The translations under genes and the position numbers were made by a program. From NCBI GenBank assembly GCA_051362555.1, contig CM120644.1, forward strand, positions 1,992,954-2,056,953: a stretch of 64,000 nucleotides of DNA, written 5' to 3'. The notes under the pieces are model-generated. The model saw only the letters and a program-made list of their open reading frames with translations, searched no databases and was not told where the DNA came from. This DNA comes from Lingula anatina. Taxonomy: Eukaryota; Animalia; Brachiopoda. Numbering within the stretch: the first letter of the stretch is position 1; every line of letters starts with the position of its first letter. Of this stretch, positions 10,242 through 42,639 are shown one piece after another.

Positions 10242-13200
10242 ATGGCTGCAGCAAGCGACCCTGAGTGCTCTGTACAGCTAGGGAAGTATGTCTATATCAA
10301 TATGTTTACCAAGCTGGGCCAGGGGGCATTTGGTGTGGTCTACAGGGGTATGGATACCAAGAGAAATATTGATGTAAGTATTATATAGAGATTTGATGAG
10401 TCAATTTGAGCATTTGTTGACCATTTCCCGTGTCGTTTGCCATTTAGGCCCATCTTAAATCATTATTATCATGTATACTTAAAATTAAAAGAAATTGAAT
10501 ACAAAAATTGAATAGAAATAGAAATATTGATTCGGCTCAAATGACACCAGATTTATCTATAATTGAATTATCTCATTGAGTATCAGTAGTAGTGGAAGAA
10601 CAGTGACCTCTAGCTTTTTCATTAAGACATAATTTGCGTATTTATTTTTTAGTAGATGTTATTCATTTAATTTTTTCATTTGCTTTTGAGATATACTGTA
10701 TAAGGTCTTTTTGAAAGTGAAAGACAAAATTGAACCAAATAGTTTTCATGGTTGTCTTCATGATGTTTTCATTGTTGTCTTTTTTTTTTGTTATTTTTGT
10801 AGTCGTTATTATATTTCAAACACAATAAGAATATTAAAGAAAAGCGATGATCCACCATTTTTTCTCGCAGGTGGCGGCAAAGCAGCTCGAGATCAAAGAC
10901 GACAAAGGTGGCGCTGACGCTATGTCAGAAATCAAGACACTCCAAAAACTCCCCTGCCATGCCAACCTGGTGGCGCTGTACGATTTCCACTTCTTCAGAA
11001 GTTCGTTCTGGGTCGTCATGGAGTTCTGCAACTGCGGGGAGCTGAAGAAGTATTTTGATGACCACAAGCCGGTGGACCAGGCCACCATGATGGACTTTAT
11101 GAGGCAGACGTCCGCCGCCGTGGATTTCATGCACTCTCTAGCAGAACCCGTTATACACCGAGATTTAAAACCAGGGAACATGTGAGTAAGAGGTCGAATT
11201 TAATACTACAGATAAAAATTAACAGTGACAGTTGTGATGATTTTTGTTACCATACGTCTGATTCTTTGATCTATAGGTTCTCTGTACTGCCTTGTTTGCA
11301 CAAGAGCAACAATTATGAATTACTAGCACAGTGCAAAGCTCGAGAAAATGAAAATGTCTAGTATTTAGCGTGGGCAGTGTATTTTTAGTTAAAATAGTCT
11401 ATAATAAGACAGTGCGTTTAGAAATCGGGTTGAACCCGGCAAGTGCCCTTTAGTGACATGTGCATGCTAGGTTCTACTAGGCCCTACTACATGTAGTAGT
11501 ACGTCAATAAACCTGTATTGATCTGGAGCTTTAGCGTGGCTTCTCACGTACCGGTATCTTTGTATATATAATACCTGGCACTGTATTTCAGAAATAAAAT
11601 GTCGCTGGCATTCCATAATTTACAGTTGTAATTCTGTGTTGAAGGAATGTTTTTACTGTAGTTTCGTTCTCTGTGGAGCTCAACTATCGCAATCACTCTG
11701 TCACAACCTTCACTTCACAATGAGTGTTTCAAAAATAGAGCAAGCTAAGGGGTTACGGAGTATTTCTTTAACTATTTTAGAACACAAGGCCCGCCAAAAC
11801 GTTTAGGCCTTCATACGCCACCACTTAACCACGTTTTTTCAAGTTTTATTTCATTTAATTTTAGACTATAAATATTGTTGGTAATATTGTGGAGGAACGA
11901 GAGGGGAGGGGGCACCCACTCGATCAGTCTTGTACGTGCCCCCCTCCTTCCCTCAAAGGTATAAAAAGCGACACGACATCAAATCAAAATTTTTTTTTAG
12001 AATATCTCAGATTAATATTTTGCTCGTCATGATTACATATAACATACCGGTATAACTAAAACACATCACTCAACTCTCTTTCTTTACAGAATGTTAAAGC
12101 AGACCTCTGCCGACCCCAAACCTGTTATAAAGGTTACGGACTTCGGGCTGTCCAAGGTGGCCGATGTGGACTTGTCCAAGACGTTTCTAATGACCACTGT
12201 GGCGGGGACCCCGTGTTTCATGGCTCCAGAGCAGTTTGCTAAAGAACCGTACACCGCCGCTGTGGACGTATTTGCGCTGGGGTTGATATACTTGGGGATG
12301 ATATATTATGAAGAAATAGGCGACATTTTGCCTTTTACAAAAGGTGAGTGGAAAGCGGCGTCCGGTGCTTTTTTAATGGATGAAATGTAATACATGGGTA
12401 TAATGTGAAATATGCTACAATCTTGGTAAACGTGTTTTTAAAAATATTTTTAGGGTGATACTGATTTATGTCTAAAATGATATTTCCTAATTGATTAATA
12501 TGATCCATACGGTATTTATGTAAGATACAAGTGTAGCAGCGAAAAAATAGACAAACGGCTCAGCTTTTAAATTATTTTTATTTGGCACAATCTGAAGGCC
12601 CATTAGACTGATCTAGTGGCAGTCAGTGAGTAACGACATATCTAGTCACAAAAGTCTGATGAGGGTCTCCGACTAAGTTGACCACAATCTAAAAAGTGGT
12701 GAGGAAAAACTTCCAACCTCAGTCAAATGATTATGATTTATATTCAAATACTAAATCAATGAACGTAGGCCTACATATATTTGCTCGAATTATTTATTCC
12801 TTTGTAAATGATATACTATATTATATTATATTATATTATATTATATTATATTATATTATATTATATTATATTATATTATATTATGCTCCAATGGTGTTTA
12901 TTTCAGAGGCCCACTCCACTGGAATGTTACTTCCGCCTGGCATGATAATGCTCCAGTCAAGTAAAACAGGAATGCCCGCTCCCGATCTGGTACAGCACAA
13001 GACGGCAGACAACACTGCGTTGACGCAGTTGAAGGAGCTGATTGGGCAGATGATCAAGGTACGGGCGAAAGAGAGGCCCAAGTCCGCATTAGTGCACGAG
13101 AAGTTGAGGACGATGTGCGGTGAGTGGGAATACTTACTCTAGCGTAGGAATATTCATATTTGTTCATATCTCAAGTTGATACGCTTGCATCCGTTTGTAT

Positions 13201-16200
13201 AAATTATACGAATATAAATGGTGGCCATTGTTCACCAATTCCTGGCAAATTTGAATCTCTATGGTCCAGCATGACTTCAAGAGTACTAGTAGATATATAA
13301 ACGACCTTTTAAATATGAGCACGCATGCGTCTAACCAGTCATAGATTTCTGTTGCGCCTTAAACAAATGTATATTTGTGCATTTGTCTGACCGTGATTTA
13401 ATGCAAACACTATATTTCCATTTATAAGGTTTTTCAGCCGATGTCTCCACTCCTTCAACTCCACCTGGCGGCGATACCACTGATGTAAAAACGACTCCAG
13501 GTGGTGCCACCAGTAGCTCTAGCAGTGACAGCACCAACACCACTACGAGCGAAGAATCTGGGGAAGATTTAGGATATCAGCTTTTACAACAGGCCGTTCA
13601 ACAGATGATGGAAGAAAAGCTTGAAGAGCGGAAGGAGAAGGAGAAGGAAAGCGAAGACCTCCTGAAGCAGATTCGCCGTGGCGCGCCCCTTCTTGAATTG
13701 TTGATGCGGCAAGGTTTGGATGAGAGCTCTGAGGAAAAAGAAGGAGAGGTGATGGATTTCACTGCAAATGGTTTGAAAAACTAAGACTTAGTCCATTAGA
13801 GAGAGTTTGAGGTTGATTGACGTAAAACGTGTATTTCTGTAAAAAAATCGATTATTTACTGATGATGATATAAAGTATACCAGTATTTATGTCAACGTAC
13901 TTTTGAGTAGGCCCTTTCGCATAAATTTTAATATATACAGTTGCAACAATCCATATATTTTGTCGTTGAGAAAATATTTTTTCGTTTAGACAAAGTTTAA
14001 AAATGGCGACCGTGTCCGCGTAACCACTGATTATGTGAAGGCCAAGGAACTGCAAGAAAACTACGGAGGCTGGAATGAATTCATGCGGCCGGTAAGTCTC
14101 GTTTTTTATATCAGTAATTCAATGTCAATATCAATGTCATTCTTAACAATATAGGTACAAGGTCAACATTCTACGTCTCATCATGAACATTAATTACCAC
14201 TGGATGTGCCCTATTTGTAGTAAACCAGCGCTACATTCTTATACATATGACTTAAGATTTTTCTGTTGGTGGTAAGTTGCTGTCTTTTACTGACGCATAA
14301 ACAAACTCCTGTTTCTCCTCTAACACTGTGGAAATGTACTAACAGAATGGTTAACTTAGACTGGGTTCCCATACATAGATCGACCCATCTGGATCGACCT
14401 AACCTCCTGGGGGTTCACGCTAAATTGCTATCAGCTCAAGATGCTTAAATGTCTGTCACGCCTACTGAATCAGCTGGGGGGAGGGGTAAAGATAACTGTC
14501 CCCTAACAGCTTTACTAGGCGTGACAGACATTTAAGCAGGTTACGTTGATAGCAATTTAGTGAGACTCCCCAGGGAGATAGATCGATCCAAATATCAGTG
14601 GGAATGGTACCTAAGCCATCTTACACACTGGCATTGCACTAGAGCAGGTACGTACCAATATATCAGAAGTATATATTCTATCAAACGTTTTTTGTTTGTT
14701 TTAGTATCTTGGCAAAGAGGGGAAAGTGGAGCGAAAAATACTACACGTCGTCAAAGTTGGATTTCCAGACGGACAAATGTAAGGGTTTAATAGTTTAAAG
14801 ATTTAATCTTAAATGGTGGCATGGATTTCTATTTGTAGCAGTGTAGGTTAATTGTTCTAAATTTGTCACGTTGGTATTTTATTAAAAGTTGGATTTGCAG
14901 AACAAAGTGCATATCACCTTTCTGCTAGATAACTTGGTATCAGTGTTGTTTGTGTATCGTTCTTCGTTAGAACATTATGTATATATTAAAATTACATTAG
15001 CATTTCAGCAAACAATTTGCAGTTTAAACATCTCCCACTAGGTGTCTCTCATGACTTCTAACCCCGAAAACTTAATAAATCTGTGAAGACCTTTCATCAA
15101 CTGTAACAGATATGGATATTATTCGCTTAATCCGATGAAATTTAAAATAATATATATATATATAAATATATATATATTGAGTTTCTGTGGGTAATCTACT
15201 TATTATCTTTTTTTTCCGATCTTCAACTTTTGCAGATGGTCTTTTAATCCTGAACTGTTGACGAAACTGACTGAAGATGGCTCTGCGGTCGGTGGAACCT
15301 CTCCAAGCGAAGCTGCAAAAGAAACCAAGCGAGACAAAAACACATCCCACGATGAGATAGTCCGCGGCTTGTTCAAACGGTTTGATGTGGTACAAATAGC
15401 CGAAGAAGCCGAAGTAGTGAAACTTCTGCAAAAAGGGCATGGGGGTTGGAATGAAAAGATGACATTGGTGAGTTTTTTTTACTTGTTTCGAGTGATGAGT
15501 TTTGCTTCTTACAGGTGTACAGTAGTACCATGCAATGCGCTTTTTAGGTAAATTTTCTTGCTTATGTGGATATGCAATTTTAAGCTGATGTACAGTTGTG
15601 GTAGCAAGTTTAACGGTGTGTTTGTACCAAAGCAGTTGCCCATATTTTACAGACACATGTATATATACGAGTATTGTAACACCTTTTCCTCCGTTGTCTT
15701 CTCTTTTAGTGTCTTGGTATCAAGGGACTCATCAACAGAGTGGACAAAGACGGAGACGTTTTTGTGGAGTGCATCAACGGGGACGAGTAAGTTTTGTGTT
15801 TTTTGTTTGCGTGAAAGAGGTTGTAACTTAATTGTCGGTATAAAGTTAAGCAACGTGATAGCCAACGATGAACGCTCTAGATAGTTCTATTTTCCAAACA
15901 TCTGTGGAGCAAATTGATTGATGGCTAAGTTTTATGACAGTCTATATCAAGATTTCTTTATATTTGTGGCGTTTACAGGTACCTGTATGTTGTTTGCTAA
16001 TTTGCTGTCAAGATATTTAGTTTTTGGCAGTGTTGTAAAGAAACTTCTGTCTGTCATAGTGGGGATTTTCTACAATAACCTTAATACTTTCCAGAAAAAA
16101 TACATTCAGTACGTTTTTTAAAATAAGCTGTCTGTTCCATCTTCCAGTTGGACCTTCAACCCTGAAATTCTAATCAAGGTAGAAGATGACCCCAATGCCG

Positions 16201-18750
16201 AAATCGAGGCTGGTGATTTCGTCTTGATAAAAAATGTCACTAAGAGCGAGGCTCAGGAACTCCAGAGAAATCACGGAGAATGGGCTAATGGAATGGAACG
16301 GGTAAACGACTTCGTGTTAGAAAAAATTAATATACGCGCGCGCGCGCGCGCGCGCGCGCGCGTGTGTGTGTTATTGTCAGATTATTCGTTATAATTTTCT
16401 TCAAACCACGAATCAAAATCGCATTATTGCGTGTGTCGCTGCGTGCCACAAGGTTTCTGGTTTGTTGTTTTGCGGAGGCCGATGTGAGTTATAGAACCAT
16501 GCCGTGTGTGGTTCACAGCATGTGGTGCTCATCCTTATCGAGATCATTGGTGTGGTTCCAGAAAAGTGTGTTGATGTCATCTTGCTCCGCTGGATAAAAT
16601 GTGGTTGCCTTGCCAGCCATCTGTTTGATTATTTCGTGAACTTTCAGAATCTGCCAGTTTATAGCTCTCCGTGAACATAACGTTTAACTGACTCTGTAAA
16701 CCAGCTAATAAATTTAGCAAATAATTTACAAATAAGCAATTATGTACTTTTGAATACATGTAGCAAGTCGATTTAGCACGGAATACTATCGTTATAATAT
16801 GCCCTATAGGCATAACTGTTGTTTTTTTCTCCGTGTAATAATGTGATACTAAAACAACGCCAAGTTATAAGCAATTATAGCAGTATGTCTTATTTTGTAA
16901 ATATTAGCGGACCGAGTTTTCTAACACGCCACCGTGCATGTTCAATAGAAAGTTATTACATGTATCAGAGAAAATGGCGAATGGCGTGCAGCAATTATCT
17001 TTTGTGGCATAAATTGATTCTGCTTCCATCTTGGGATCATAATATAAATGTTAACCAAGCGCTAGCTACACGTAGAATGGTTAGTGCGATGCATCATCAA
17101 TGCAACCATAACTTTTCATATAATATTGTAAAATAGTGTTTTTATATGTCTCAGCCTTATGCTCTAATCACTCTGTTCCCTTCTATTATTCACAAACAAA
17201 TATCAATTCATATATTGCCATTGCCTAACATAATTTGCAGAACCTTTCATCAATCACCATCATCATATACGTGCCTATCTCCTGCTCGACTTTTTGTAAC
17301 ATATACATGTATATGGCACAGCGACCTTTTTTGTGGTTTTTGCATGAAAAGATCCAATCTTTAATATTTCATTAATAAACCTATTGTTAAACGCCCGACT
17401 GGTTGATTATTTCTCTATTATACACAAATACACAAGGAATCGTCCTGGAAGTTCAAGAATAACTTAATTTCAGTGGACTGATATCATTCCATCGTACCAT
17501 TTTAGCCGAGTCTGAGCGTGGTTTTCCCTGTTTGCATATCACGGCTAGGGATAGTGAAGACAGTTCATGCAGGGAGGTATTAAAACCTGATACTGTTTTA
17601 TTTCCAGTCTCTAGGACACACAGTCATAGTGAAGGCTGTTTATACACTATTAACACATACCTGTTGTATTTCCAGTCTCTAGGACACACAGGGATAGTGA
17701 AGGCCGTTCTGAAAGGAGACAGGGTCCGAGTGGAGGTGGCAAGACATGTGTGGATCTTCAACAAAAAACTCGTCAAGCTGGTCGCCAAATCAGGTAATTG
17801 AGGGGTGGAGTGGGAGTATAAAGGTGCTATGTTTAGGCTCATAGCCATGCAGTTGGGGTCTTTTTTTTTTCTAAAAAATTGAACAGTTTAACCCCCTCAA
17901 TAAACCCATATTCAGAAGTGGTATACAGATATGATCAAAATATCATTCAGGGTGGGCTTTCCAACCGAAAGGGTGGTTCTTCCGGCTTCTTTCGACCCCC
18001 TCTCCTGACTCCTGGCTCCTGGTTTTGTTGAACTGTGACATACATGTATGTGTTTATACTCTACATCGTATGTCAGTAACTATTTTTGAAAAAAAAATGT
18101 GATCATTAAATATCCTTTAGCTTTCTCGATTTGGACAATATAGATAAATATAATAAAAATTTCACATTTTCTGTTCAATTTTTGTATGTCTCGTCAGTGG
18201 GGGCATTGCTGTTTTTGTCATTTCTAATCATATTCATTGAAATTTGACGTTATTTCTAACTTTCACACCTAACTGATAATAGGATATGTGGGTGTTTAAG
18301 TATAAGATAACGAGAACATGTATGCTGTTGGATTGTCAGGTTACATTTTGATTGAATTATGTCAGAAGTGTAAATTTGGAAATGTGAATTCATTTGTCTA
18401 AGTCATATTCCGATAATTTTCAACTTAAGATTAGAATGCTTTCAAGCAAGCAAATACTTTTTTCTGATATTTTTTGCAAAGAAATGGCAATGCCATTTGA
18501 TGAGTTCACAGCACTCTCCTTGAATTATTGCCAAAACATTTTTCTTCTTATTAATGCTGCACATTTTTTTATGAAGCCCCAATGCGTGTACTTCAATGAT
18601 TAGAAGTAACCAACGATTGTCTGTCTGTAGAAGAAATGCTAGGGTGCAAATATAAAATAAATAATCATCTAAACTACAGTAGTTTGCTTTATATTTTTAA
18701 TTTCAGAGGAGATGTTGGTGGCCATTTTGAAAAGGAAATTTGGCATGTGA
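10242..18750 (+). CDS. Ser/Thr protein kinase (STK35/PDIK1L-like) fused to three Mind bomb REP/SH3-type repeats, paralog B (676 aa)
   Basis: 12 GT-AG exons in frame: 10242-10373, 10871-11181, 12090-12343, 12907-13119, 13429-13748, 13990-14091, 14705-14778, 15236-15467, 15710-15786, 16148-16301, 17676-17793, 18707-18750 (2031 nt). Motifs LGQGAFGVVYRG, VAAK, HRDLKPGN, KVTDFGLSK, GTPCFMAPE, DVFALG. Three repeats of (G)DxV..LQxxHGGW..M..LG..G.V....V.V....W.FNP. The last exon and the exon 5 boundaries are less certain. AATAAA signals near 19243-19316. Confidence 0.9.
12815..12883. repeat. (ATATT)n microsatellite
   Basis: Read directly from the sequence; intronic, just before exon 4 of kinase B. 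Confidence 0.95.
14344..14621. mobile_element. Palindromic MITE in an intron of kinase B
   Basis: Long inverted arms, e.g. CTAAATTGCTATCA..TGCTTAAATGTCTGTCACGCCTA versus TAGGCGTGACAGACATTTAAGCA..TGATAGCAATTTAG. Confidence 0.7.
16335..16370. repeat. (CG)14(TG)4 alternating tract
   Basis: Read directly from the sequence. Confidence 0.95.
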
Positions 18751-21184: not shown

Positions 21185-21235
21185 CGTCAGTCTGATGAAG
21201 GCCTTCGACCAGGTTGGCCGTAAGCTAACGGTACG
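21185..21235 (+). ncRNA. Minimal hammerhead-ribozyme-like motif in the Penelope pLTR, variant core; further copies at 23716-23766 (+) and about 21011-21061 (-)
   Basis: CTGATGA (21192-21198), stem II GGCC...GGCC, GTAA in place of GAAA, short palindromic AGCT stem III, then TA. Minimal hammerheads in PLE pLTRs are established knowledge. Confidence 0.6.
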
Positions 21236-21289
21236 GAAAATTTTAGGCTTGTGTCTGAGAATTTTCATATTTATCCAACAACCAAGCTA

Positions 21290-23698
21290 ATGAACCTTTT
21301 TGCTCATTTACGAGAAAATCATGGACAGTCTGAAGTCCAACATTTACGGACCCTTGAGAAAAATCATAAATGTCTGGCGAGATATAAGAACCATCTATGT
21401 TTTTCGCTACGCTGTCGAGACGAAGGGATCACTCCACCCAGTTTGAAACTAAAAAGTTCGCTGAAAACACAGAATGCGATCAAAATCTTGAAGAAAGCAC
21501 AGAAGGACCTACTGAGGGAAAGAATCCGTATTTGTAATGACAAAATCACGACTCTAAGGACAGAGATAGAGAAACATACGGAACATTTTAGAGAACTGTT
21601 GACAGCTGATCAGTACTCATCAGTAGAGGACTTCTGTAAACGGAAATACGAGGCTGCGCATGCGCTTACCAAAGACCGCCATCTTAAAAAGTTTTCAAAC
21701 ATGACAGTGAAGAACAGGACTACGTCGGTGGATTTAAGTGGTTCCCAACTCAAGAAATGGGTAATCAACCGATCGGACCGCATGTTAACTGACACTGAGA
21801 CACGTCTCTTAGCCAAAGGGTTAAATTTTGCCGTAGCTCCGAAGATTCTCCCCGTAGAAGACATCATCGTGCAGACGGAGCTAGCATGTAGAAATCTTGA
21901 CAACACCGAGGCAGCAGATATGCGTGCGGAGATCGTAGGGGCGATCAAGTCATCAAAACCCCCGACAGATAACATCAGCAGAGAAGAACGGAGAGCACTT
22001 CTAGACCTAAAGAAGGACAAGTCCATTATGATCTTGGCCGCTGATAAAGGACGAGCAACAGTGGTTCTAAATAGGACAGACTATGAACACAAGATACAAC
22101 AATTGCTGAATGATGACAACACCTATGAGAAACTAAAGCGTGATCCAACTGCAGCTTATAAACGTAAGTTAACTAAGTGTTTACTACGGCTACAGAAAGA
22201 AGGGAAGCTATCTAGGTCTCAATATGCTCAACTATACCCTACTGCGGAAACACCACCTAAGCTGTACGGTCTTCCTAAGATTCATAAAGAGGGTACACCC
22301 TTAAGGCCTATAGTGTCAAGTATTGGATCTATCACCTACCAGACAGCAAAGTTCCTAGCCAAAATCTTAAACCCACTAGTAGGTAAATCATGCCATCATG
22401 TATTGAACTCGAAGGACTTTGTTGATAAAGTGAAGGATATCATTCTGGGACCACATGAAGCACTAGTTTCATATGATGTGAGTGCACTTTTTACTAGTGT
22501 ACCGGTGGATGATGCTCTTAAAGTGATTAGTTCCAGACTTACGCTAGATCCCACCCTCAATGGACGTACTAATCTATCAGTAGAGGACATCACAGAGCTA
22601 TTAGACATTGTATTGAACACCACATATTTTATCTATAAGGGTGAATTCCATAAACAGAAACATGGAGCAGCCATGGGCAGTCCAATCAGTCCGATCGTGG
22701 CTAATCTGTATATGGAGAACTTTGAGGAAGCCGCACTGGGATCCATGCCCAATCCTCCACGTCTTTGGTTGAGATATGTAGACGACACGTTCACCATCTG
22801 CCACAGAGACCACATAACTGCTATCACCGATTTTATCAACAGCCAAGACCGTAACATCAAGTTCACTAGAGAGCTAGAGGATAACAATTCTATTGCTTTC
22901 CTGGATTCATTGATCACACGTGAAAACGACGGCCACCTGAGTCTGAAAGTCTACAGGAAGGCCACTCATACCAACCAATACCTAAACTTCCAGTTGCACC
23001 ACCCATTACATCAGAAACTGGGGGTAGTAAGAACTCTAAAACACAGGTGCAACACGATCGTGACTAATGAGGAAGACAAGACCTTGGAGAACAAGACACT
23101 AGATGAGGCTCTCTTGATGTGTGGTTACCCACCTTGGGCTCTAAAGACCAAACTTCGCCAGGATAAGACAGCAGTAACTAACTGTGAGCCAACAGATACA
23201 GTCGGAAAAAAACAGCTAGTGATCCTCCCTTATTGTAAAGGAATTTCAGAGAAAGTGTGCAGGATCTACAAGAAGCACAGTGTCAACACAGCTTTTAGAC
23301 CTCAGTGCACATTGAAACAACACCTAGTGGCACCAAAGGACAAAACCCCCCAAGATCACCGTTGTGGGACAATATACAGGATCAATTGCCATGACTGTAA
23401 TTCCTTTTACATTGGTGAGACAGGTAGACAGTTGAAGATCAGGGTGAGTGAACACAAGAAATCAGTGACTGTAGGCAATACCAGCTCTGCCATTTCTGAA
23501 CATGTAATAGACACCGGCCACAGTATAGATTGGAATTCAACTAAGATTCTTGAATCTGAATCATCCGACATCCCGCGAAAAATACGAGAGGCTATCCACA
23601 TCAGCCGACACCAGCCACCCATGAATAGGGACGGGGGGGTTGATCTACCTGACATTTATAAGAGGGTCCTGGCCGCTATACCATCTAGCGGTCAGTGA
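21290..23698 (+). CDS. Penelope-like reverse transcriptase with GIY-YIG endonuclease
   Basis: Open frame (ORF track 21251-23698; first ATG at 21290). Motifs ADKGRATV, LYGLPKIHK, PLRPIVS, SYDVSALFTSVP, GAAMGSPISP, RYVDD, FLD, VYRKATHT; endonuclease GTIYRINCHDCNSFYIGETGR..RVSEH. Confidence 0.95.
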   Translation: MNLFAHLRENHGQSEVQHLRTLEKNHKCLARYKNHLCFSLRCRDEGITPPSLKLKSSLKTQNAIKILKKAQKDLLRERIRICNDKITTLRTEIEKHTEHFRELLTADQYSSVEDFCKRKYEAAHALTKDRHLKKFSNMTVKNRTTSVDLSGSQLKKWVINRSDRMLTDTETRLLAKGLNFAVAPKILPVEDIIVQTELACRNLDNTEAADMRAEIVGAIKSSKPPTDNISREERRALLDLKKDKSIMILAADKGRATVVLNRTDYEHKIQQLLNDDNTYEKLKRDPTAAYKRKLTKCLLRLQKEGKLSRSQYAQLYPTAETPPKLYGLPKIHKEGTPLRPIVSSIGSITYQTAKFLAKILNPLVGKSCHHVLNSKDFVDKVKDIILGPHEALVSYDVSALFTSVPVDDALKVISSRLTLDPTLNGRTNLSVEDITELLDIVLNTTYFIYKGEFHKQKHGAAMGSPISPIVANLYMENFEEAALGSMPNPPRLWLRYVDDTFTICHRDHITAITDFINSQDRNIKFTRELEDNNSIAFLDSLITRENDGHLSLKVYRKATHTNQYLNFQLHHPLHQKLGVVRTLKHRCNTIVTNEEDKTLENKTLDEALLMCGYPPWALKTKLRQDKTAVTNCEPTDTVGKKQLVILPYCKGISEKVCRIYKKHSVNTAFRPQCTLKQHLVAPKDKTPQDHRCGTIYRINCHDCNSFYIGETGRQLKIRVSEHKKSVTVGNTSSAISEHVIDTGHSIDWNSTKILESESSDIPRKIREAIHISRHQPPMNRDGGVDLPDIYKRVLAAIPSSGQ

Positions 23699-30361: not shown

Positions 30362-33300
30362 TTACTTTCTTTTGCTTCTCTCGTCATATATGGTGTCCCT
30401 GAATTCTTCGTAGTGTCCCTCCCTTAATTTGCCCAGCAGTGTTGACACTTTCTGCTTCATCTTCGGTTTCCTCCACACCTTTTTCATGTCCTGTGATGCT
30501 ATCACACTTCGGTCCACAAGTCTCTGCAATATCTCACTTAGCGCATCTTCTGGAAGCTCCAAGACCAAGTCTGGCAACCTTATTCATTAATAAATAAGAA
30601 AATATCAACACCCTATGTTCAACAAAATATTTCAAGTCACAAACAGAAGTGAAGCAGAAAGCAATTATTGATCTACATGCAGCAGGTGTCTGTAAACACC
30701 AGTGACATTTTGTGAACTGTATTTAATTTTAAATGCTTGATTAAGTTCATTTTGCAGACTTGCCTCAGAAGCCGAGCTGTCTGTGCATGCCCGTTGTCAT
30801 GGAGAGCACCACAGAACTGGTAGAAAGCAAAATCGTTTTTCCCCTTCAGGTAACTCTGAAGTCTGTTCCCTTGATCTGGTTCCTGGATTGCTGTGATTTC
30901 TTCCTCTGTAAAAATACCAGCTCTGTGGAGTCGACTGAGTATCTTATGAAGGCAGCCAAACCTGCGGATGTTCTTCAAAATAAGGGGAGCATGTTTTTCT
31001 AGAGACATGCAGTGCAAAGCTGTAATTTCTCCTTCAAGAAAAAAAGAAAGGAAATAAAAATAAGCTTGTTTTTTTCTGTTCAAGCAAAATAATAACAATA
31101 CTAACTCCACATAAAATTGAAGTGTTAAATCAATCATTGCTATAATATAATAACAAGTACAATGCAATACATTCATTCAAATGGTTTTACAACGGTGCTG
31201 AAATAAACTTATACACATATATTAGTATTTTGCCATATTTACCCCCTGTCACTGGATAGTAAAAATCTGCAGAAGCCATGAAGTCTGGTTTTTCCTCCGG
31301 ACACGGGTGGTAGGGAACGGGTGCTTCAAGGGGAACGCTCAGAAGAGTGACAGGGGTGTCAAACAACGTCGGTGGATCGTTCTCCTCGTGGACGCAGTGC
31401 GGACAAACCAGAAATTCATCCCGAGGAGAGCCGGGGCATTCTCTCTCTGCCAGAGCTAGAAGATCCTGAAAAATCCTCAGGCTGTGCTCCTTCAGTTGAA
31501 CGGGATCATTGCCACGTATGGAAAGTCGAATAACTCCATTGGGTGGCGCACCAATAACTTCTCTTTCTAAACAAATTCGGAATTGGTTGTCAAGCTGTGC
31601 ATAGAAACCGTCTTTCCAGTCTCGCCTTGATGCCTTAAATTGCCCCAAGTAACCATGAAGATGCACTGCCGCCATTTCGTACAAACCAGTGGGACAGGCG
31701 GCTGGAAAATGAACTTCTAATGAAATCTGTGACTCATCTCTAGCTGGAACAAGGGGCCAACTGGAAGAGACGTCTTCAGGTCGATCTTCTTTCACAAGCC
31801 ACGGGAAATGGTACCTATCTTCATCAGCAACGTAACAAATATCAAAGTTTTCAAGTAAAACCAACATTGCGTCGAGACCTTTTTTTCCAAAGTTGAATCT
31901 CCGCCACAAACATCTTATCATGGTCCTACTGATGATACCTCTTTGCAGTACATCTCTCTTGGCAGATTCGAATTTTGCCTTGGTGAACTCCTTGTTGAAA
32001 GGGTCGGTATCATATACAAGTATAGTATCAATACCATGACGGAGAACCGCCTTCAAAATATCAATGAAAACATCTTGTCTGTGGAATACGAAGGCCTTCA
32101 GCAACGGCTTATCTCTAAACCAAAGAACAGCACCAGTGGCATGCAGGAAACTCAGCACGTCTTCAATTCTTTGAGCATTATCCTCTCCCTGCATTTGTGA
32201 TGATGTCATTTCTGCCATGTTAAGAAGGGAATTCAGCGTTAGGAAATGGTCTTGTTTACTATGCTTTGCCGTCTCGATGTACTCCACCTTCTGCAGCCAA
32301 GAATCTGGCAATATAAAATTCTTTTCTCTTGCTCTTCTAATCAACTCTTTTTCGAGTTCGGTTATCCCATAGCCATTATCGGAACTGATGACAAATACAC
32401 GTTCATTAATACGTGGTGGTGTCTGCATAAGTCTCTTAATTCGCAACATCTTTTCTTTGTATGCCAATTCCGATTCTTCCGATTCTTTGCCTTTGCTTCT
32501 CTTCTCTAATTCCTCAAGCATTGTTCTTAAGTTAGATGCCATATCATCTAAATGGGAATTGAGAGCACATAAAAGCTCGCTCGTGTTTTTCTCTACCTCT
32601 TCTCTGCTCAGGCAATCTGCATGCGTGCCTACAAGCAGTATAGCTGTGTCTGGCGCCCTGCTGTAAACGTTATGTATCCAGCTTCCAATCGCTTTTTGAT
32701 AACCCAAAGATACATTCTTAAGATTGAACACTATCAGAGTGAGAGCCTCTTTGGTTATGAAAAAGTTATGTGCGACCTTGTAGACGTCGTGCCCCCCAAA
32801 ATCATTGATGCTGAGAAAAACATCTTCCTTTGGTGACCATCGAATCTGTTCCATGACGTGAGTTCTGTCCGCCTTTGGAGTTAAGAAAGGCTTACCAGAT
32901 GTCAGAGTTTTTACCAAACTCGTCTTCCCTGCACACGTCTCACCAATAACTTGTACCTGTAGTCTACACGATGATGTTGCCTCGGTTTTGACTAAATCAT
33001 CAAAATATCTTTTAATTGCTTCTATCCCAATTTCTGCTACTTCTTGTGGTGGTTGTTTTAGTTCGTTCCCATGCAAACTGAATATACTGAGATAAGAAAG
33101 TTGACATACTTCCAGGGGCAATCGGGTCAATTTATTTTTATCCAACTGAATAATTTCTAGGTTTTGTAGTTGTTCAATCTGTGGTGGAATTTCAGTGATT
33201 CTATTATGGCAAAGGCCGATCGTCTCCAGTGTCACCAGCTCACATATTGACATCGGGAACTCATCCAACTCGTTCCAAGACAGGTCAAATTCCTTCAGAT

Positions 33301-36142
33301 TGTTTAATTGTGTTATCTGAGGTGGCACTGTGGTGATGTCAGTTGCTGAGAGGTCAAGGATTTCTAGTGTCACAAGCTCACACACCGGCATTGGAAATCC
33401 TTTCAGCTTGTTCAGAGATAGGTCCAATAGCTTCAGATTCTTTAGTTGTGTTATTTGAGGTGGCACTGTGACGATTTTGGTGCTCTTGAGGCCAAGAGTC
33501 TCTAGTGTCACCAGCTTACACACTGATAATGGGAATTTATTCAAGCAGTTCTCAAGCAGGTTTAATTTCTTCAGATCCGTAAGGTTTGCTATCTCAGGTG
33601 GCACTCTTTTGATGTGGTTTTCACGGAGGTCAAGGGTCTCCAGGGTCACCAGCTTACACAATGACATTGCAAATTTTTTCAGCTTGTTCCCAGACAGATC
33701 CAATTCCTTCAGGTTCTTAAGTTGTGTTATCTGAGGTAACACTGTAGTGATGTTGTTTCTTGAGAGGTCTAGGGTCTCCAGTGTCACCACCTCACACACT
33801 GACATTGGGAATTCTTTCAACCGGTTGCCAGACAGGTTCAACTTCTTAAGATTCTTAAGTTGTGTTATCTCAGGTGGCACTGTAGTGATGTTGTTGTCCC
33901 GGAGGTCAAGGTTCTCCAGCGTCACCAGATCACACACTGATAATGGGAATTCCCTCAACTGGTTCAGAAAAAGGTTCAGTTCCTTCAAGTTAAAGAGTTG
34001 TGTTATCTGAGGTGGCACTGCGGTGATGTCGGTGTTCTCGAGGTCAAGGGTCTCCAGTGACACCAGCTCACATACCGACATTGGTAATGTTTTCAGCTGG
34101 TTCCCAGGCAGGTTCAATTTCTTCAGATTTATAAGTTGTGCTATCTGAGGTGGGACTGTAGTGATCTGGGTTCCTGAGAGATCAAGAGTCTCCAAGGTCA
34201 CCAGCTTACACACTGACAAAGGTAAATTTTTCAACTGGTTCCCAGACAAGTTAAATTTCTTCAGATTTATAAGTTGTGCTATCTGAAGTGGCACTGTGGT
34301 GATGTTGGTATCTGAGAGGTCAAGACTCTTCAGTGTCACCAGCTTACGCACTGACATTGGGAATTCTTCTAATTTGTTCAGAGACAGGTTCAAATCCACC
34401 AGACTCTCTAGATGTTTTATTTGGAGTGGCACTTTTGTTATGTTCGCAGCAGAGAGGTCAAGGGTCTCCAATGTCACCAGTTCACACACTAGCATTGGGA
34501 ATTCCTCCAGTTTGTTCCGAGCTAGGTTCAACAGCTTTAGATTCTTAAGTTGTGTCATCTGAGGTGGCACTGTAGTGATGTTGGTACTCTTGAGGTCAAG
34601 AGTCTCAAGGGTCAGAAGCTCACACACTGACATTGGGAACTCTCCCAGCTGGTTCTGAGACAGGTTCAATAACTTCAGATTCTTAAGCTGTCTTATATGA
34701 GGTGGCACTGTAGTGATCCTGGTTGTTGAGAGGTCAAGGGTCTCCAGTCTCACCAGCTCACACACTGATATTGGGAATTCTCTCAACTGGTTGCCAGACA
34801 GGTTTAATTTCTTTAGATTCTTAATTCGTCTTATCTGAGGATTCACTGTAGTGATGTTGGTTTTAGAGAGGTCAAGACTCTTCAGTGTCACCAGCTTACA
34901 CACTGGCATTGGGAGGTCCTTCAGCTTGTTCCGAGCTAGGTTCAATACCTGCAGGTTCTTAAGTTTTGTTATCTTAGGTGGCACTGTAGTGATGTCGGTG
35001 CTTTTGAGGTCAAGGCTCTCCAGGGTCACCAGCTCACACAATGAAACTGGGAATTCCTCCAGCTTGTTCCAAGACAGCATCAGTTCTTTCAGATGCTTAA
35101 GTTGTGTTATCTGAGGGGGCACTGTAGTGATTTTGGTTCCTGAGAGGTCAAGTGTCTCTAGGCTCACCAACTTACACACTGACACTGGAAATTTGTTTAG
35201 TTTGTTATAAGCCAGGTTCAGTTCCTTCAGATTCTGAAGTTGTATTATCCGAGGTGGCACTCTGGTGATGCACGCACCCGAGAGGTCAAGGGTCTCCAGG
35301 GTCACCAGTTCACACAATATTGGGATTTTCTTCAGCTTGTTATCAGACAGGTTTAGTTTCTTTAAATCCGTTAACTTCGTTATCCGATGTGGCACTGTCG
35401 TGATTTTGTTATTCGAGAGGTTAAGGGTCACTAGTGTTTCCAGCTCAAAAAGTGACAGTGGGAATTCCTGTAACCTGTTATTAGACAGGTTTAATTCACT
35501 CAGATTTTTGAGTTGGTTTACCTGTGGCGGAATTGCCGTAATATTAGCACTATCCAGATTAAGGCTTTCCAATGCTTTCATCTTTAATATTGTCAGTGGG
35601 AATTCTTCTAAGGGATTCCGGGAGATGTCTATTTTCGCCAACTTGCACAGTCTTTCCACATCTGGCCTTATGGTCGTTATGTTGTTGTTCTTTAGATCAA
35701 GTTCCTCCAACGTCACGAGGCTACATACTGGTAGAGGTATCTCTGTCAGCTGGTTTCCTGATAAATTAAGCTTCCTCAAATGTTTGGGTATGCTTATGTT
35801 TGGCGGAATCAAAGTAATGCTACAGTTGGACATGTCTAAATTTTCAATTGCCTCCAGCCTAAATATTGTAACAATGATGTCTTCGTTCTTAAGCCTAGTA
35901 TTGGAAATATTAAGTGTATTTAGTTTCGTACAACGTAGTATGCTATTTGGAAGTCTGCATCCTAGTCCTCTTAGGTTTAACTCTGTCCATATTTCCACCT
36001 GATCCGTGCCTGGTCCTTGGTAACTGGGATCTTCATCCAGTTTATTAAGAAAATCTAGTTTTTCCTGATCTCCATATTTGATTGAGTGCTCATCCTTTTG
36101 GCAGCATAAGACATTACGCACTTGGCTTAAACTTGAACCCAT
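30362..36142 (-). CDS. Roco protein, MFHAS1-like: LRR array, Roc GTPase, COR and tandem CARD/death-fold-like domains (about 1794 aa)
   Basis: Exons 36142-31243 (4900 nt), 31031-30764 and 30578-30362, phase-consistent (5385 nt). About 40 LRRs. Roc motifs: G1 IGETCAGKTS, G3 NDFGGH, G4 VGTHAD, G5 VISS. COR with LSFLHATGAVLWF, YHFPW and CPHC. C-terminal helical domains ILSRLHRAGIFTEEEITAI..AFYQFCGALHDNGH and ILQRLVDRSVI..KVSTLL..YEEF. The 3' end could extend by a further exon. Confidence 0.9.
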
Positions 36143-37277
36143 TTTTCTAATCAGTTAGATTCTTCAAAGACTTTACTTTACTATAGGATGAAGGCAGCAT
36201 ACTAATGGTAGTGATTGTTGGCTACTTTATTGTTCTCTACCAGCACACAAAGATACTGGGTTGGCGACATTTTTCCTGCACTTAGCTGAGTGTCGGTGCC
36301 TTCACTGTTCTCTACTTCTACAGCACACAAAAGTACCAGTATGTCGAGTGTCTCCCTACATAAGACTAGATGCTGTTTCCTTAAATGGTAATTTAAAATG
36401 ACAAACGATGTATTGGTGTTCAGACTGCCTTCTTGTAATGGTCTAAGCCTGAAGGATCATTTATTGTTCTCTACTAGCACCCAAAGGTGCCAGTATGTTG
36501 ACTGCCCCCCTGTTCCCTGTATTAGACTGGGTGCTGTATGATTTCAAGAATTTGATTAAAAAAAAAGTAGTGAAACAGAGTACCCCCCAGAAAAATACAT
36601 TCAATTTGAACCATACAGTAGGTAACAGCCAAAGGGAGATATATATTGTATCTTATATAATGTTCTTAGTGATAAAAGTACAATTCATCTCATTAAAGTT
36701 ATATTTCATTAAAGTTGTATTTCAATTAACATCACTTGTGGTTGTTTAACTGGACATGCACGGAGGAGTTATTTATAGTTTAAAGAAAATTTATTCGTGG
36801 GAGCAGAAGGGACGTGGGTTATGCAGGATGAAAGCAAATATGCACGATCATAGGAATCCAGTCTGTTTTACCTTTGTAAGAAATAGACACAATTGCTATC
36901 AGATGTAATTTTATTGTAGTAGGTGTCTGAAGGTCTTTAACGCTAAAGGTGGGGTCAACAAACTGACTATAGAGGGATCAACAGAATCCATTAGAATATA
37001 TGAACGATTATGAAATTTATGAAAGTTCCGCTTGCGTGTAACGCAAATAACGCTGGTGAGGGTGGTGCACATCCTTTACAACGACCTGAAGCAGACGTTA
37101 ATATGCTGCTCCAGCTGCCAAAAGTTAGATAGTTATAACGTTAGATATTCACTACACTTGTTAGGCAAGGGTTTTTGTTTTAATAGGCCTATTAGTAACG
37201 AACGAACGAACTTCACGAGAAAACTTAGCGATTGGTTAACAATATCTTTCTAAAACACCACTCGAAGTTCGATAGTT

Positions 37278-38569: not shown

Positions 38570-41500
38570 CAGGTCAGCAGGTTTTCTCTCCAGGCTGTAG
38601 GTTTCATATTCATGTCAACGGGGAGGTATGCTCACTCAGTGGTATATTTGCTATGTCATGCTCTTTATTTCCAGTTTTACAAACTGTTTGTTATTGCTGT
38701 TTCAACACCATATTCGTTCCTTCTTAGTATATATGAATTTATTGTCGTTTAACGAGTCAACGTTAAAGGTGTTAGAGAAGCATGTCAGGTTAAGAAATGA
38801 GTTCATAGGGCAGGGAGTTTGACATGCGCAGATTGTGCATTGCGCAATAGTATAAAAGGAAATGTGAGATGAGCATATTTCATTCGAGGCCTTTTTCAGC
38901 TTGCTGCGAAACAAGTAAATCGCTAGTATGTCGAAGAGAAGAGGGGAGTCAACCTCGGATAGTGAAGATTCCGAGAGAGAGAAAACAGAGAATTCTTGAA
39001 TTTGGCAGTAGAAGATAAAGAAGAGGGCAAAGAAGGAGCTTTCAATAAGCAAGGTGATGTAAATGATAACAGCTCAGCCGGACAAATGGTGGACACATTT
39101 TCTATGTTCAAATCTTATATGGACAAACAGTTTAAATCACTGAAAAGAGAGCTCGCCGAAGAAAGTCAAAGTCAGAACAAAAAAGCCAGACAGTACAGCA
39201 AAAATTTAAATTTGCGGGAAATCAAAAGCAGTTCGAAATAAATACTGAAGTAATTGAAAATATGCAAAAAGCAGATATGTTAATTAAGGACGGACAGGTA
39301 AAAGAGGCTCGTAAGGCACTGAAAGAAAGCATTGGTATTTTACAAAAGCGAAATAAACTCATAAGAATAGCAGACAAGTCAGAAGCAGGTTGGGAAGCGG
39401 TAAAAGAATACGAATCAGACGACATAGCAGAAGATAGTGATGATAAAAAGAAAATATGGTCTGCACAAATGAGAGCCAGTAGAAAAATGTGAATACAAAA
39501 TCAAAATAGGCGTAACAAAAACGAGTTCATTTACAATAAAAATAATTATACTGCGCCAGTCAATTTTGCAGGTATATCTGACAGAGGAAGCTTTCTTTTT
39601 CGAAGAAAAAGATTCCCAAACCCAAACGACCAGTGCTTCGCCTGGGGCAGTATGGCCATTGGAGGGAGAGCTGTCCATACAAATACCAAGCACAGAGTAC
39701 AGTGCCTCCACGCGAAAGAACATACGGACAGAAATTCAGAGGAAGCGAAGCTACATGCAGCGGGAGACAACAAAACGAATAAAAGCAAGATGAGCAAATC
39801 AAAAATGAAGTATATGATAGATAACAATTTGAGCAAGTCGGATGGGTTGGTGGATTATCAACAAAATGTTAAGGAAGACTTAAGAGAAACTATCAGTTCT
39901 GGAAAAGCATACAGGCTAATAAATATATTTTAGACGTATTAAAAAATGGATATGTTATTCCATTTATTGAGACACCGCCCAATTCTTTTATCAAGAATAG
40001 CAAATCATCGCTCGAAAATACAGAATTTGTTATCAATGCCATTTAAGATTTATTAAAATCTGGCAGAATTCGAGAAGTTAAGGAAATTCCAAAGGTGGCA
40101 AATCCATTAACGGTTACATCTAACGGCAAAAAGAAACGTTTAGTACTTGGTTTAAGACATGTGAATCCTTACATTTGGAAAGAGAAAGTAAAATTTAAAG
40201 ACTCAAACGAGGCTCTACAATATTTTAAATTGGGAGGGAATATATTATTTTGCGACATCCCCAGAAATGCACTGCATGACGTCACGCCTAGCCCACTGCG
40301 CATGCGTGCATTTTTAATGAGTTGCTAGATTGCCATAGGAAAATGAATGGGTTCGCGATTCGTGGGTAATTCGTGAGAATTGGCAAACTAACGGCCTGAT
40401 ACCGATAGACAGCAACGCTGTGCTATGCTTCAAGTAACTCCTGATCAAATATCGCTAGGGTTTTTAAAAAAATTCTGTTGTACACACGTACTAAGAAGTT
40501 TGCCGTATATTGCCTAGACTACCCTCAGCAAAACGCAAATATTTTCAGTTATAGTGATTTTAGACGGTAGATTCACTCAGAAACAAAGGGAAATTAATTC
40601 GTTGCCGATAGCACCAGCTGATAGCAGTAACATACAGAGTATGATTAAAAAAATTCATGGCAATTGAAGATTTTTTTACCACTGTACAATGGAGTCCAAA
40701 AAGAGCACTTGGCACAATTGTAAAACTGCCCAGTGCAAGGCCAAGAATTCAATCAGTATTTTCAATCATATTATCAGATTCTACATAAATTGACTGACCA
40801 TATCACTACTCAGTATTTAACTAATCTCTTAATCCAAAATTCCTATCATCATTTAATAATTATGCAAAATTCTTCTTTTAGATTGCTATTTATTAAAATT
40901 TTTAATGCTGCAACTGTTCCAAAAATAAACTTGTAGTAAAGGAAAAATGCAAATAAGAAGTGGAAGACCAATTTTACCCACAGTATTCAATTATTTGAAT
41001 ATAAAAAGAATAAGATCACGATTTAACAAATTAAAATAATCTTTCATGAACTCTTTCATGAATAACATATTAAACAAAAATGAAAGTTATAAATCAGTGG
41101 TAATGGCTTATTCTGGAATATATGACCTCTGTACATCTTCAGTACCTGACTTGGTACAGTATAGTTACTACTTGGATACAGAGTTAGATTTAATAATGTA
41201 ACAATAAGAACAATATATATTATAATAATAAACTTCTCTGCACATATCAGACGCTTGTTACCATGAACTAACACTACTTGACAATGGGCTGAGCACTTAT
41301 CACAGAGTCTGTGTGCGATGCCATTCTTGTGCTGTGATTGGTTAGTTGAGTTACGTGAAGCCCTACTGTTGCGCCCTCGCGTATCGCGTAAATGCTGCAC
41401 ATTTCTGGCCATGAATAAAATGGATTCCAAGGACACAAAACGCAAACGCGGATTATATAAGTAAAATTATAGACACAGATGATTGGGAAGTCACGGAGAA

Positions 41501-42134
41501 TTTCTTTAATTTTATGAATAAAAAATGGGGATCGTATACAATAAAAAGATTTGCAAATTATGAAAATACAAAAGTAACTCGTTTTAATTCAAAATTTTTG
41601 AATCCAAATACAGAGGCGGTAGATGCGTTTTTACAGGTTTGGTCAAACGAAAATAATTGGTTAGTACCTCCAGTCGCATTAGTGCCAAAAGTTATAAATC
41701 ATTTATTATGTTGCAAAGCAAAAGGTACTTTGGAAGTACCAGACTGGAAATCAGCAACATTTTGGCCTTTGTTACAAGATGAAAATTCAAAATGGAAATG
41801 GTATAATAAGGATATATAATAAATTAAGAACGGATGTGATATTTGTAAACAGGGGAAAAACAAAAATTCTTATATAGGATCAAAAAACTTCAAGCATCAA
41901 ATTCTGGCAATAAAGATAGATTTTTCTGTATAGAACGGTTAGATCAAGATTAGATTTAAAGTAGGTGAAAAGGTTGAAAATTATATAAAATGCAATGGAC
42001 CATGAGAAAATCTAGAAGTGATTTAAAGGATTCATAATGGATCATGACATCCGTTACATAAGATTTTATGTAGTATATTCATTTATGAAGAAACGTTAAT
42101 GTAATAAACGTTAATAGTGATGGATATGGTGGAT

Positions 42135-42245
42135 ATTCGAATCGAGATGTGATTCGATATGAACCAAGATGTGGTTTGATATGAATCGAGATGTGGTTAG
42201 ATATAAATCGAGATGTGATTAGAAATGAATCAAGATGTGATTTAA
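42135..42245. repeat. 22-bp tandem repeat inside the DIRS/PAT element
   Basis: About 5 units of ATATGAATCGAGATGTG(A/G)TT(C/A)G. Confidence 0.8.
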
Positions 42246-42639
42246 TAGGAAACAAAATTGGATTTGATAAGATGAATGGGATTTAATATCAGTTTTATAT
42301 GTAAAATTGATACATATTGATAAATGATAAGAATAATGACATGGTAATGGTAAGAGAAAAAGCTGTTACATGTTTGCAGGTTGAGATTAAAAAGCTGAAT
42401 TAGAATGAGATGGGTTAAGATACAGTCGAAATATGATTAGATTTAAAAACTGCGAATTATATAATGAAAATATGTCAGACAAAAGTTTGATCAGACGTGT
42501 ATAAAGGGGAATTGTAAGGTGAATGTTGAATGGTGAAGTTACCATAATAAAATAAATAAAGATTAGAGAGAATGATAAAGGATAAGAAGCATAAAAATTA
42601 CATTTATGGTATTGATGCGATGGTCATTTTCTATTACAG

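What the first reader, a model, noticed from the sequence alone, without database searches (positions are those of the whole stretch)
10242..18750. Unusual architecture: Ser/Thr kinase fused to three Mind bomb REP/SH3 repeats
Seen: a catalytically intact kinase (VAAK, HRDLKPGN, DFG, APE), a Ser/Thr/acidic and helical linker, then three roughly 65-aa repeats with the signature GD-V..LQxxHGGW..M..LG..G..V..D..V.V..W.FNP. The repeats are split over small exons that the ORF track mostly misses. Established: this signature matches the Mind bomb REP (Pfam SH3_15) repeats, which in the MIB1/MIB2 E3 ligases bind substrates such as Notch-ligand tails and occur with Mib-HERC2, ZZ, ankyrin and RING domains. 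Inference: here the substrate-binding module is coupled to a kinase rather than a ligase, an architecture I do not recognise from characterised proteins. It could phosphorylate or compete for MIB clients.
Basis: partly seen in the sequence, partly recalled or inferred. Interest (0 to 1): 0.85.

Follow-up and report, generated by a model that had tools for sequence, protein, structure and literature searches.

The report
Brachiopod kinase with Mind-bomb repeats
This expressed gene of the lamp shell Lingula joins a protein kinase with intact catalytic motifs to three Mind-bomb-type repeats that likely steer it to partner proteins; other kinases carry such repeats in plants and amphioxus, so it is an unstudied variant of a recurring design.

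Summary
A 12-exon, 676-aa gene (98% identical to a Lingula anatina RefSeq protein) encodes a kinase with intact motifs, a linker and three SH3_15 repeats (Pfam 124.7 bits, cut-off 24). RNA-seq shows 10 of 11 splice junctions, including kinase-linker-repeat. A head-to-head paralog with the same intron phases lies in the window, and four paralog clusters exist in Lingula. Kinase plus SH3_15 is not unique: Arabidopsis KEG has it (with a RING), a plant cluster has it with no ligase family listed, 8 of the 150 best database representatives have it with unrelated kinases (4 named amphioxus), and this scan noted a protist case before. The Lingula fusion is independent (one kinase clade rejected, p-AU 0.004). 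Its repeats come from an older three-repeat cassette also found in an annelid protein, and MIB's dominant ligand site (MZM) is absent. The kinase belongs to an unnamed clade near STK35/PDIK1L; its closest relative is fused to a septin-like GTPase. Most likely a docking-directed Ser/Thr kinase made by domain shuffling; action on MIB clients is possible but unsupported. New variant, moderate interest.

The parts
10242..10373 (+). Coding exon 1: start codon, kinase Gly-rich loop
   Evidence: model; joint 10373-10871 in 4 of 4 runs
10871..11181 (+). Exon 2: VAAK, alphaC, hinge, HRDLKPGN
   Evidence: Pfam Pkinase 76.7 bits on this frame alone; joints
12090..12343 (+). Exon 3: DFG, activation loop, APE, alphaF
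   Evidence: Pfam Pkinase 49.5 bits; joint 2-3; joint 3-4 not among the shown rows
12907..13119 (+). Exon 4: end of kinase C-lobe (aa 234-304); most variable exon
   Evidence: 13 of 27 variable sites among three near-identical copies; joint to exon 5
13429..13748 (+). Exon 5: Ser/Thr-rich disordered linker (22 S/T in aa 304-349) then a predicted long helix (aa 351-397)
   Evidence: both joints in 4 of 4 runs
13990..15269 (+). SH3_15 repeat 1 (aa 412-480), over exons 6, 7 and the start of 8; begins at the exon-6 boundary (phase 0)
   Evidence: joints
15369..16181 (+). SH3_15 repeat 2 (aa 514-583), over exons 8, 9 and the start of 10
   Evidence: (45 and 43 bits to the two MIB1 repeats of 4tse)
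16200..17783 (+). SH3_15 repeat 3 (aa 590-659), over exons 10 and 11
   Evidence: joint 10-11
18707..18750 (+). Exon 12: predicted terminal helix and stop; the helix start is shared with the non-Lingula-named cassette protein P0063
153..6152 (-). Head-to-head paralog: kinase, linker, repeat 1 and half of repeat 2 in exons 6152-6033, 5531-5221, 3949-3702, 3138-2926, 2351-2029, 1420-1325, 982-909, 378-153; runs off the window start
   Evidence: same intron phases 0,2,1,1,0,0,2,0; 90% identical to P0003 (Pkinase + 3 SH3_15); no RNA laid here

Best explanation
The gene encodes a likely active Ser/Thr kinase whose three Mind-bomb-type SH3 repeats likely act as a docking module that brings it to partner proteins, which it would then phosphorylate. 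Shown: the gene structure, expression, domain content, intact kinase motifs, a small paralog family and the absence of ligase domains. Inferred from trees: the fusion arose by joining a kinase of an unnamed invertebrate clade to a ready-made three-repeat cassette at an exon boundary, then duplicated. Inferred from MIB1 and KEG: the repeats bind short peptide motifs and set substrate choice or location, on a flexible tether. The partners are most likely not Notch ligands but components of a lineage-specific signalling pathway; an innate-immune or stress role is my leading guess for that pathway (about 0.35) and rests on circumstantial evidence only.
For: Splicing and expression. Domains. Same architecture in 4 of 4 hits, confirmed by Pfam; paralogs keep all three repeats at 47-67% identity while the linker falls to 7-24%. 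AlphaFold2: kinase and repeats confident, linkers under pLDDT 50, pTM 0.53, so no fixed packing is predicted. A model of repeats 2-3 of the paralog (P0020) has MIB1 REP as best match (Foldseek E 6e-14; Z 12.0). REP binds the ligand C-box in MIB1 (PMC11887331); KEG's repeats alone pull down MAPKKK18 (PMC11020294); MZM-REP works on a flexible tether in mini-MIB1 (10.1101/2024.03.01.582834). Independent fusion: Lingula kinases form one clade (100/95; 99/93) next to an Actinia kinase fused to a septin-like GTPase; one clade of all 13 kinase+repeat kinases is rejected, p-AU 0.004. Older cassette: repeat 2 groups with P0063, P0014 and Lamellibrachia P0017 at 97/97, Lingula repeats as one clade rejected, p-AU 0.027; P0063 is 42% identical over 254 aa in the same order.
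Against: No kinase activity, partner or substrate was tested. The residues of the MIB1 REP binding surface could not be checked: the structure paper was not held. The tandem arrangement of the modelled repeats differs from MIB1 REP (rmsd 12-13 A over both repeats), so the same binding mode is not assured. The exon 3-4 joint was not among the shown rows, and short reads show joints, not whole transcripts. One RefSeq scaffold splits the paralog into a kinase-only and a repeat-only model (P0006, P0020). Repeat trees rest on 70 columns. The read variants shown give no excess of amino-acid changes (kinase 10 of 28, repeats 12 of 28, linker 0 of 5; only the listed rows), which does not support arms-race evolution.
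Confidence: 0.62

Rival explanations
1. One reading: the repeats recognise the same motifs as MIB1/MIB2 (for example the C-box of Notch ligands), so the kinase phosphorylates MIB clients or competes with the ligase.
For: Repeat 2 matches both MIB1 repeats, with the LQxGHGGW and WxFNP motifs kept. In flies a Mib1 lacking MZM but keeping REP is dominant-negative, and this depends on REP (PMC11887331 passages).
Against: No MZM; the same paper finds the N-box/MZM site dominant and the C-box weak alone. The repeats group by position with a non-MIB cassette. The fly construct kept its ankyrin and RING regions. Canonical MIB1/MIB2 were not in my tree, so descent from them was not tested directly.
Confidence: 0.13
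2. The repeats mainly regulate the kinase itself, by folding back on it or by oligomerising, and release it when a ligand binds.
For: KEG's repeats may mediate dimerisation (PMC3697954 passage). A predicted helix at aa 351-397 and a terminal helix are kept in paralogs.
Against: Low pTM and long low-confidence linkers in the full-length model; MIB1 MZM/REP is monomeric in isolation. The linker helix is only 16-52% identical among paralogs.
Confidence: 0.17
3. A recent, nearly neutral shuffling product, or a scaffold whose kinase activity does not matter.
For: Among the 150 best representatives and the 120 listed hits, this kinase clade with SH3_15 was seen only in Lingula-named proteins; Lingula is reported to be rich in gene family expansion and domain shuffling (PMC4595640 passages).
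Against: Paralogs 45-54% identical keep every catalytic motif, all three repeats and the intron phases; the gene is spliced in all 7 runs laid.
Confidence: 0.08

Closest known systems
Arabidopsis KEEP ON GOING (KEG)
   Same: Kinase domain and SH3_15 ('HERC2-like') repeats in one chain, repeats C-terminal and used for partner binding (PMC11701565, PMC11020294, PMC3697954; passages read).
   Different: KEG also has a RING and ankyrin repeats and is an E3 ligase; 7-12 repeats; its kinase is filed under TKL in a plant kinome (PMC11646777 passage). None of RING or ankyrin is found here.
Plant kinase + SH3_15 cluster of about 630 aa (ESM Atlas rank 29); probably the KOC1 family
   Same: Pkinase 100%, SH3_15 78% of 85 members, no ligase family listed, similar length.
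   Different: Plants only. That the cluster is KOC1, and that KOC1 has kinase, HERC2-like repeats and a membrane anchor, is recalled, not checked: the KOC1 paper was not held; a review passage says only that KOC1 phosphorylates Toc159.
Mind bomb 1/2 (MIB1 REP region, PDB 4tse, 4xi6)
   Same: Same repeat family by sequence (E 1.7e-24), Pfam and predicted fold.
   Different: MIB has two repeats behind MZM and before ankyrin and RING domains; here three repeats follow a kinase, with no MZM, ankyrin or RING.
Amphioxus SH3_15-array kinases (P0010, P0015, P0021, P0071; uncharacterised)
   Same: Animal proteins with kinase and several SH3_15 repeats, no RING found by Pfam.
   Different: Kinase is C-terminal and of another group (one is annotated RIPK4; far away in the tree); 3 of 4 carry a Neuralized domain.
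STK35/PDIK1L (NKF4) kinases
   Same: Top Atlas cluster is named PDIK1L-like; the Ciona savignyi STK35-like protein lies in the sister group of the 49-row clade that holds this kinase (96/82 with a mixture model; 92/72 without).
   Different: Only 29% identical and lacking the 35-residue insert of the Ciona protein; not an orthologue. The STK35-like label of P0170 rests on recalled motifs and on PMC2737284 stating that Ciona savignyi has such a gene.

Membership tests
SH3_15 / Mib REP repeat (PF18346) | Pfam score above the curated cut-off | tested here: met
   124.7 bits, cut-off 24, 3 stretches; 114-121 bits in three paralogs
SH3_15 / Mib REP repeat (PF18346) | SH3-like barrel fold matching MIB1 REP | tested here: met
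   Model of paralog repeats 2-3 (P0020, pLDDT 88.8): best hits 4tse and 4xi6 by Foldseek and VIA
SH3_15 / Mib REP repeat (PF18346) | Tandem packing as in the MIB1 REP pair | tested here: inconclusive
   rmsd 12-13 A over both repeats; a predicted model with a flexible joint
SH3_15 / Mib REP repeat (PF18346) | Binds the Notch-ligand C-box or a like peptide | not testable with these tools
   No binding assay; binding-surface residues not available (not held)
Mind bomb E3 ligases | MZM (Mib-HERC2, ZZ), ankyrin repeats and RING domains | tested here: not met
   None in Pfam scan at E up to 1; the reading frame ends 17 residues after repeat 3 with the last joint read-supported
KEG-type kinase-ligases | RING plus ankyrin repeats beside kinase and SH3_15 repeats | tested here: not met
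Active eukaryotic Ser/Thr kinase | Gly loop, beta3 Lys, alphaC Glu, HRDxKxxN, DFG, APE, alphaF Asp | tested here: met
   kept in paralogs; kinase fold TM 0.84 to ULK1
Active eukaryotic Ser/Thr kinase | Measured phosphotransfer | not testable with these tools
   needs a bench assay
STK35/PDIK1L (NKF4) | Nested with STK35-like kinases in a tree | tested here: inconclusive
   Sister position at 92/72 and 96/82; one reference only, no vertebrate STK35 retrieved
STK35/PDIK1L (NKF4) | Long N-lobe insert seen in the Ciona STK35-like protein (taken as a family mark from recall) | tested here: not met
   35-residue gap
ULK/ATG1 (the RefSeq name) | Groups with ATG1/ULK kinases | tested here: inconclusive
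   ULK1 is the best PDB match but at 27-29% identity; plant ATG1t falls outside the clade; no animal ULK was in the tree
ULK/ATG1 (the RefSeq name) | C-terminal MIT-type regulatory domain (recalled) | tested here: not met
   The C-terminus is three SH3_15 repeats; no other family scores

The most novel reading that the evidence does not exclude
Mind-bomb repeats are a mobile recognition module that has been joined to unrelated kinases several times, and the Lingula family is an animal kinase that reads the same peptide motifs as MIB ligases, adding a phosphorylation layer on MIB clients such as Notch ligands or cell-death and NF-kB regulators, with a fast-changing substrate face encoded by exon 4.
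Probability: 0.13. Interest if true: 0.75.

Novelty: new variant of a known kind. Interest (0 to 1): 0.42.

Why it matters
It shows the Mind bomb substrate-recognition repeat being reused without a ligase, on a kinase, and by a route independent of plants and amphioxus. A compact 676-residue protein with one kinase and three repeats is a convenient test of what SH3_15 repeats bind outside Notch signalling, which is poorly known, and it marks an unnamed invertebrate kinase clade that swaps its C-terminal module (repeats in Lingula, a septin-like GTPase in a sea anemone). It also corrects misleading database names (ATG1, STE20-like, STK4-like) for these genes. It does not on present evidence change how Notch or MIB signalling is understood.

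Tried and rejected
No genome was held, so copy number and the Lingula MIB1/MIB2 genes could not be examined. The run search listed no indexed RNA holder; raw-read runs of the same species label were laid instead. No RNA was laid on the paralog. A complex prediction for two copies of aa 345-676 gave no verdict (score 0.00, controls not folded); it says nothing either way. The Atlas search with the repeat region gave only hits under 0.9. The word-based search with a kinase alignment (best 120 of 964 listed) returned no named vertebrate STK35, PDIK1L or ULK. NCBIfam gave only generic kinase hits under cut-off. Paper searches for a description of this family found none: (and 24, 28, 33, 39, 78 for MIB REP and KOC1); four wanted papers were not held and no supplements were read, so kinome or domain tables may list these genes. 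PMC8195603 held nothing on Mind bomb repeats. Rejected: mis-assembly or fused gene model (reads join the parts; a 46%-identical paralog has the same intron phases); triplication of one repeat within Lingula; shared origin with the other kinase+SH3_15 proteins; the name ATG1. Rows left out of trees: 23 named near-redundant or multi-kinase rows (55 kept), 1 (77 kept); one search used 66 of 182 repeats.
Full report
Observation. The sequence at 10242-18750 holds twelve coding exons with GT-AG ends that give an open 676-aa frame. A search with exon 8 found one protein among 143 candidates, P0001, a 676-aa Lingula anatina RefSeq product named ATG1; the window model differs from it at 13 residues and from a second record, P0005, at 17. 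Pfam gives Pkinase (169.8 bits) and SH3_15 (124.7 bits, three stretches) and no MIB_HERC2, ZZ, ankyrin or RING. All catalytic motifs are intact.

Expression. No genome was held. Nine raw RNA runs with the same species label were listed and seven were laid. In one search the six joints from exon 4 to exon 10 appear in 4 of 4 runs; exon 4-5 has 6, 1, 6 and 2 reads and exon 5-6 has 20, 3, 15 and 9. One search adds joints 1-2, 2-3, 10-11 and 11-12. The 3-4 joint is not among the rows shown (24 hidden); depth there is low and this stretch is the most polymorphic, and both RefSeq models contain the joint. Exon 4 is the end of the kinase C-lobe, so the kinase-to-repeat link itself is read-supported. 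Stranded runs read the + strand. Short reads do not prove whole transcripts.

Family in Lingula. A search with the repeat region returned 4 proteins among 1732 candidates, all Lingula and all kinase plus SH3_15, 45-54% identical to P0001. One lies head-to-head on the minus strand of this window, start codons 4.1 kb apart, with the same intron phases. The pair appears on two RefSeq scaffolds by accession neighbourhood; given 1.6% heterozygosity (PMC4595640, passage) these may be alleles. On one scaffold the paralog is split in two models (P0006, P0020). Introns fall at the same places in the repeats (phase 0 after the GGW..M motif in all three, phase 2 before WxFN in two), and repeat 1 starts at an exon boundary.

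Structure. AlphaFold2 on P0001 (46 sequences) gives a confident kinase and three confident barrels, a helix at 351-397, a terminal helix, and low-confidence linkers; pTM 0.53. The kinase matches ULK1 best (TM 0.84, 27% identity). A model of the paralog's repeats 2-3 matches MIB1 REP first (E 6e-14; Z 12.0) but with rmsd 12-13 A, so the two barrels are arranged differently or loosely. By sequence the C-terminal part hits only MIB1 in the PDB at a significant level (E 1.7e-24).

Spread of the architecture. A full HMMER scan of 1.84 billion representatives listed its best 150. With profiles built from the Lingula proteins, 27 carry the repeat and 9 carry kinase and repeat, P0001 and eight others; Pfam confirms both domains in 8 of 8. 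Six of the eight were looked up: four are Branchiostoma proteins with a repeat array before a C-terminal kinase, one is a JGI record and one a metagenome bin labelled archaeon, both with an N-terminal kinase and 10-11 repeats. The Atlas adds an 85-member plant cluster with Pkinase and SH3_15. KEG is the characterised case, with RING and ankyrin as well (PMC11701565, passages; also plant kinome passages). An earlier unchecked note of this scan describes a protist kinase with a Mind-bomb-like array. The list is cut at 150, so more may exist.

Origin of the kinase. The five Lingula kinases form a clade (100/95) with an Actinia tenebrosa protein and an unnamed 191-aa fragment (98/97), inside a clade of unnamed kinases (98/98) (mixture model 99/93, 97/99, 99/94). 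The Actinia protein, about 53% identical in the kinase, carries a septin/AIG1-like GTPase instead of repeats. The Ciona STK35-like protein is in the sister group with modest support (92/72; 96/82) and has an insert that is missing here. The eight other kinase+repeat kinases lie far off; holding all 13 together is rejected (p-AU 0.004). The tree therefore shows at least two origins; the eight may or may not share one, as no repeat-free kinases of their groups were included, but their domain orders differ.

Origin of the repeats. Position-specific profiles find the order R1-R2-R3 in P0063, P0014 and the Lamellibrachia protein P0017, which has DUF4559 in place of a kinase. Repeat 2 groups with their repeat 2 at 97/97, and a Lingula-only clade of repeats is rejected (p-AU 0.027; 70 columns). 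P0063 aligns at 42% over 254 residues to the start of the terminal helix. So the cassette is older than this fusion. Canonical MIB1/MIB2 were not among the hits and are not in the tree. P0041 and P0063 may be fragments, so the fusion is not shown to be limited to Lingula.

Variation. Among the window model, P0001 and P0005, 13 of 27 variable sites lie in exon 4 (71 of 676 residues; binomial p 9e-7, picked after seeing the data, about 1e-5 over 12 exons). The paralog pair P0003/P0006 has no difference in the first 230 residues, 8 in 231-298 and 32 in the linker; P0004/P0007 differ at only 2 sites. This region is also the least conserved part of the kinase between paralogs (28-37%). The 61 read variants taken from the shown rows give no excess of amino-acid changes, and only one is in exon 4. 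Diversifying selection and relaxed constraint cannot be told apart.

Mechanism. In MIB1 the REP region binds the ligand C-box as a secondary site; MZM is dominant (PMC11887331, passages), and MZM-REP works on a flexible tether (10.1101/2024.03.01.582834, passages). KEG's repeats bind a partner kinase (PMC11020294, passage) and may mediate dimerisation (PMC3697954, passage). The simplest reading is a tethered docking module that selects partners for the kinase (0.62). An immune or stress context is suggested by the GTPase-fused sister kinase, the RIPK-named amphioxus analogue, paralog growth and an LRR-Roc-COR gene 12 kb away, but none of this is a test. Action on MIB clients (0.13), self-regulation (0.17) and near-neutral or scaffold use (0.08) remain.

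Novelty. Searches for a description of this family found none; all papers were seen as listings or passages only, four were not held, and no supplements were read. The proteins are in RefSeq under generic names. The architecture type is known from KEG and recurs elsewhere; this kinase clade with this cassette is undescribed as far as these searches reach. Verdict: real, a new variant of a known kind, interest 0.42.

Noticed in passing
window 30673-36154 (-): A 1655-aa single-frame LRR-Roc-COR gene (Pfam LRR, Roc, COR-A, COR-B) followed by a frame with a weak CARD hit (E 6e-4, under cut-off): likely one Roco-CARD gene.
   Followed up: partly
window 14387-14593: Intron 6 holds an inverted repeat with 94-nt arms (79% complementary); many RNA reads at 90-95% identity with unlike flanks pile on it, as expected of a MITE-like repeat transcribed from other places. 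Single copy in the window.
   Followed up: partly
window 17547-17709: The exon-11 acceptor and first codons are duplicated 68 nt upstream (92% identical); use of the upstream copy would hit a stop; reads use the downstream one.
   Followed up: yes
window 21224-23698 (+): 824-aa open frame with reverse transcriptase and GIY-YIG hits, a Penelope-like retroelement by recalled domain order.
   Followed up: no
window 38966-43473 (+): Broken frames with weak tyrosine-recombinase and Dam-like methylase hits, resembling a DIRS/Ngaro-type element (recalled).
   Followed up: no
window 52293-53732 (+): LINE-like reverse transcriptase fragment interrupted by a stop.
   Followed up: no
P0008 (Actinia tenebrosa): Closest kinase relative is in a sea anemone, not a lophotrochozoan, and is fused to a septin/AIG1-like GTPase; patchy spread unexplained.
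   Followed up: partly
P0009-P0097: SH3_15 arrays occur with many other domains: Neuralized, PH, ART, DUF4559, SPRY, ankyrin, U-box, C1; the repeat is a widely shuffled module.
   Followed up: no
window 16380-17321: Depth near 1 across intron 10 in 2 of 4 runs, + strand: some intron retention or unspliced RNA.
   Followed up: no
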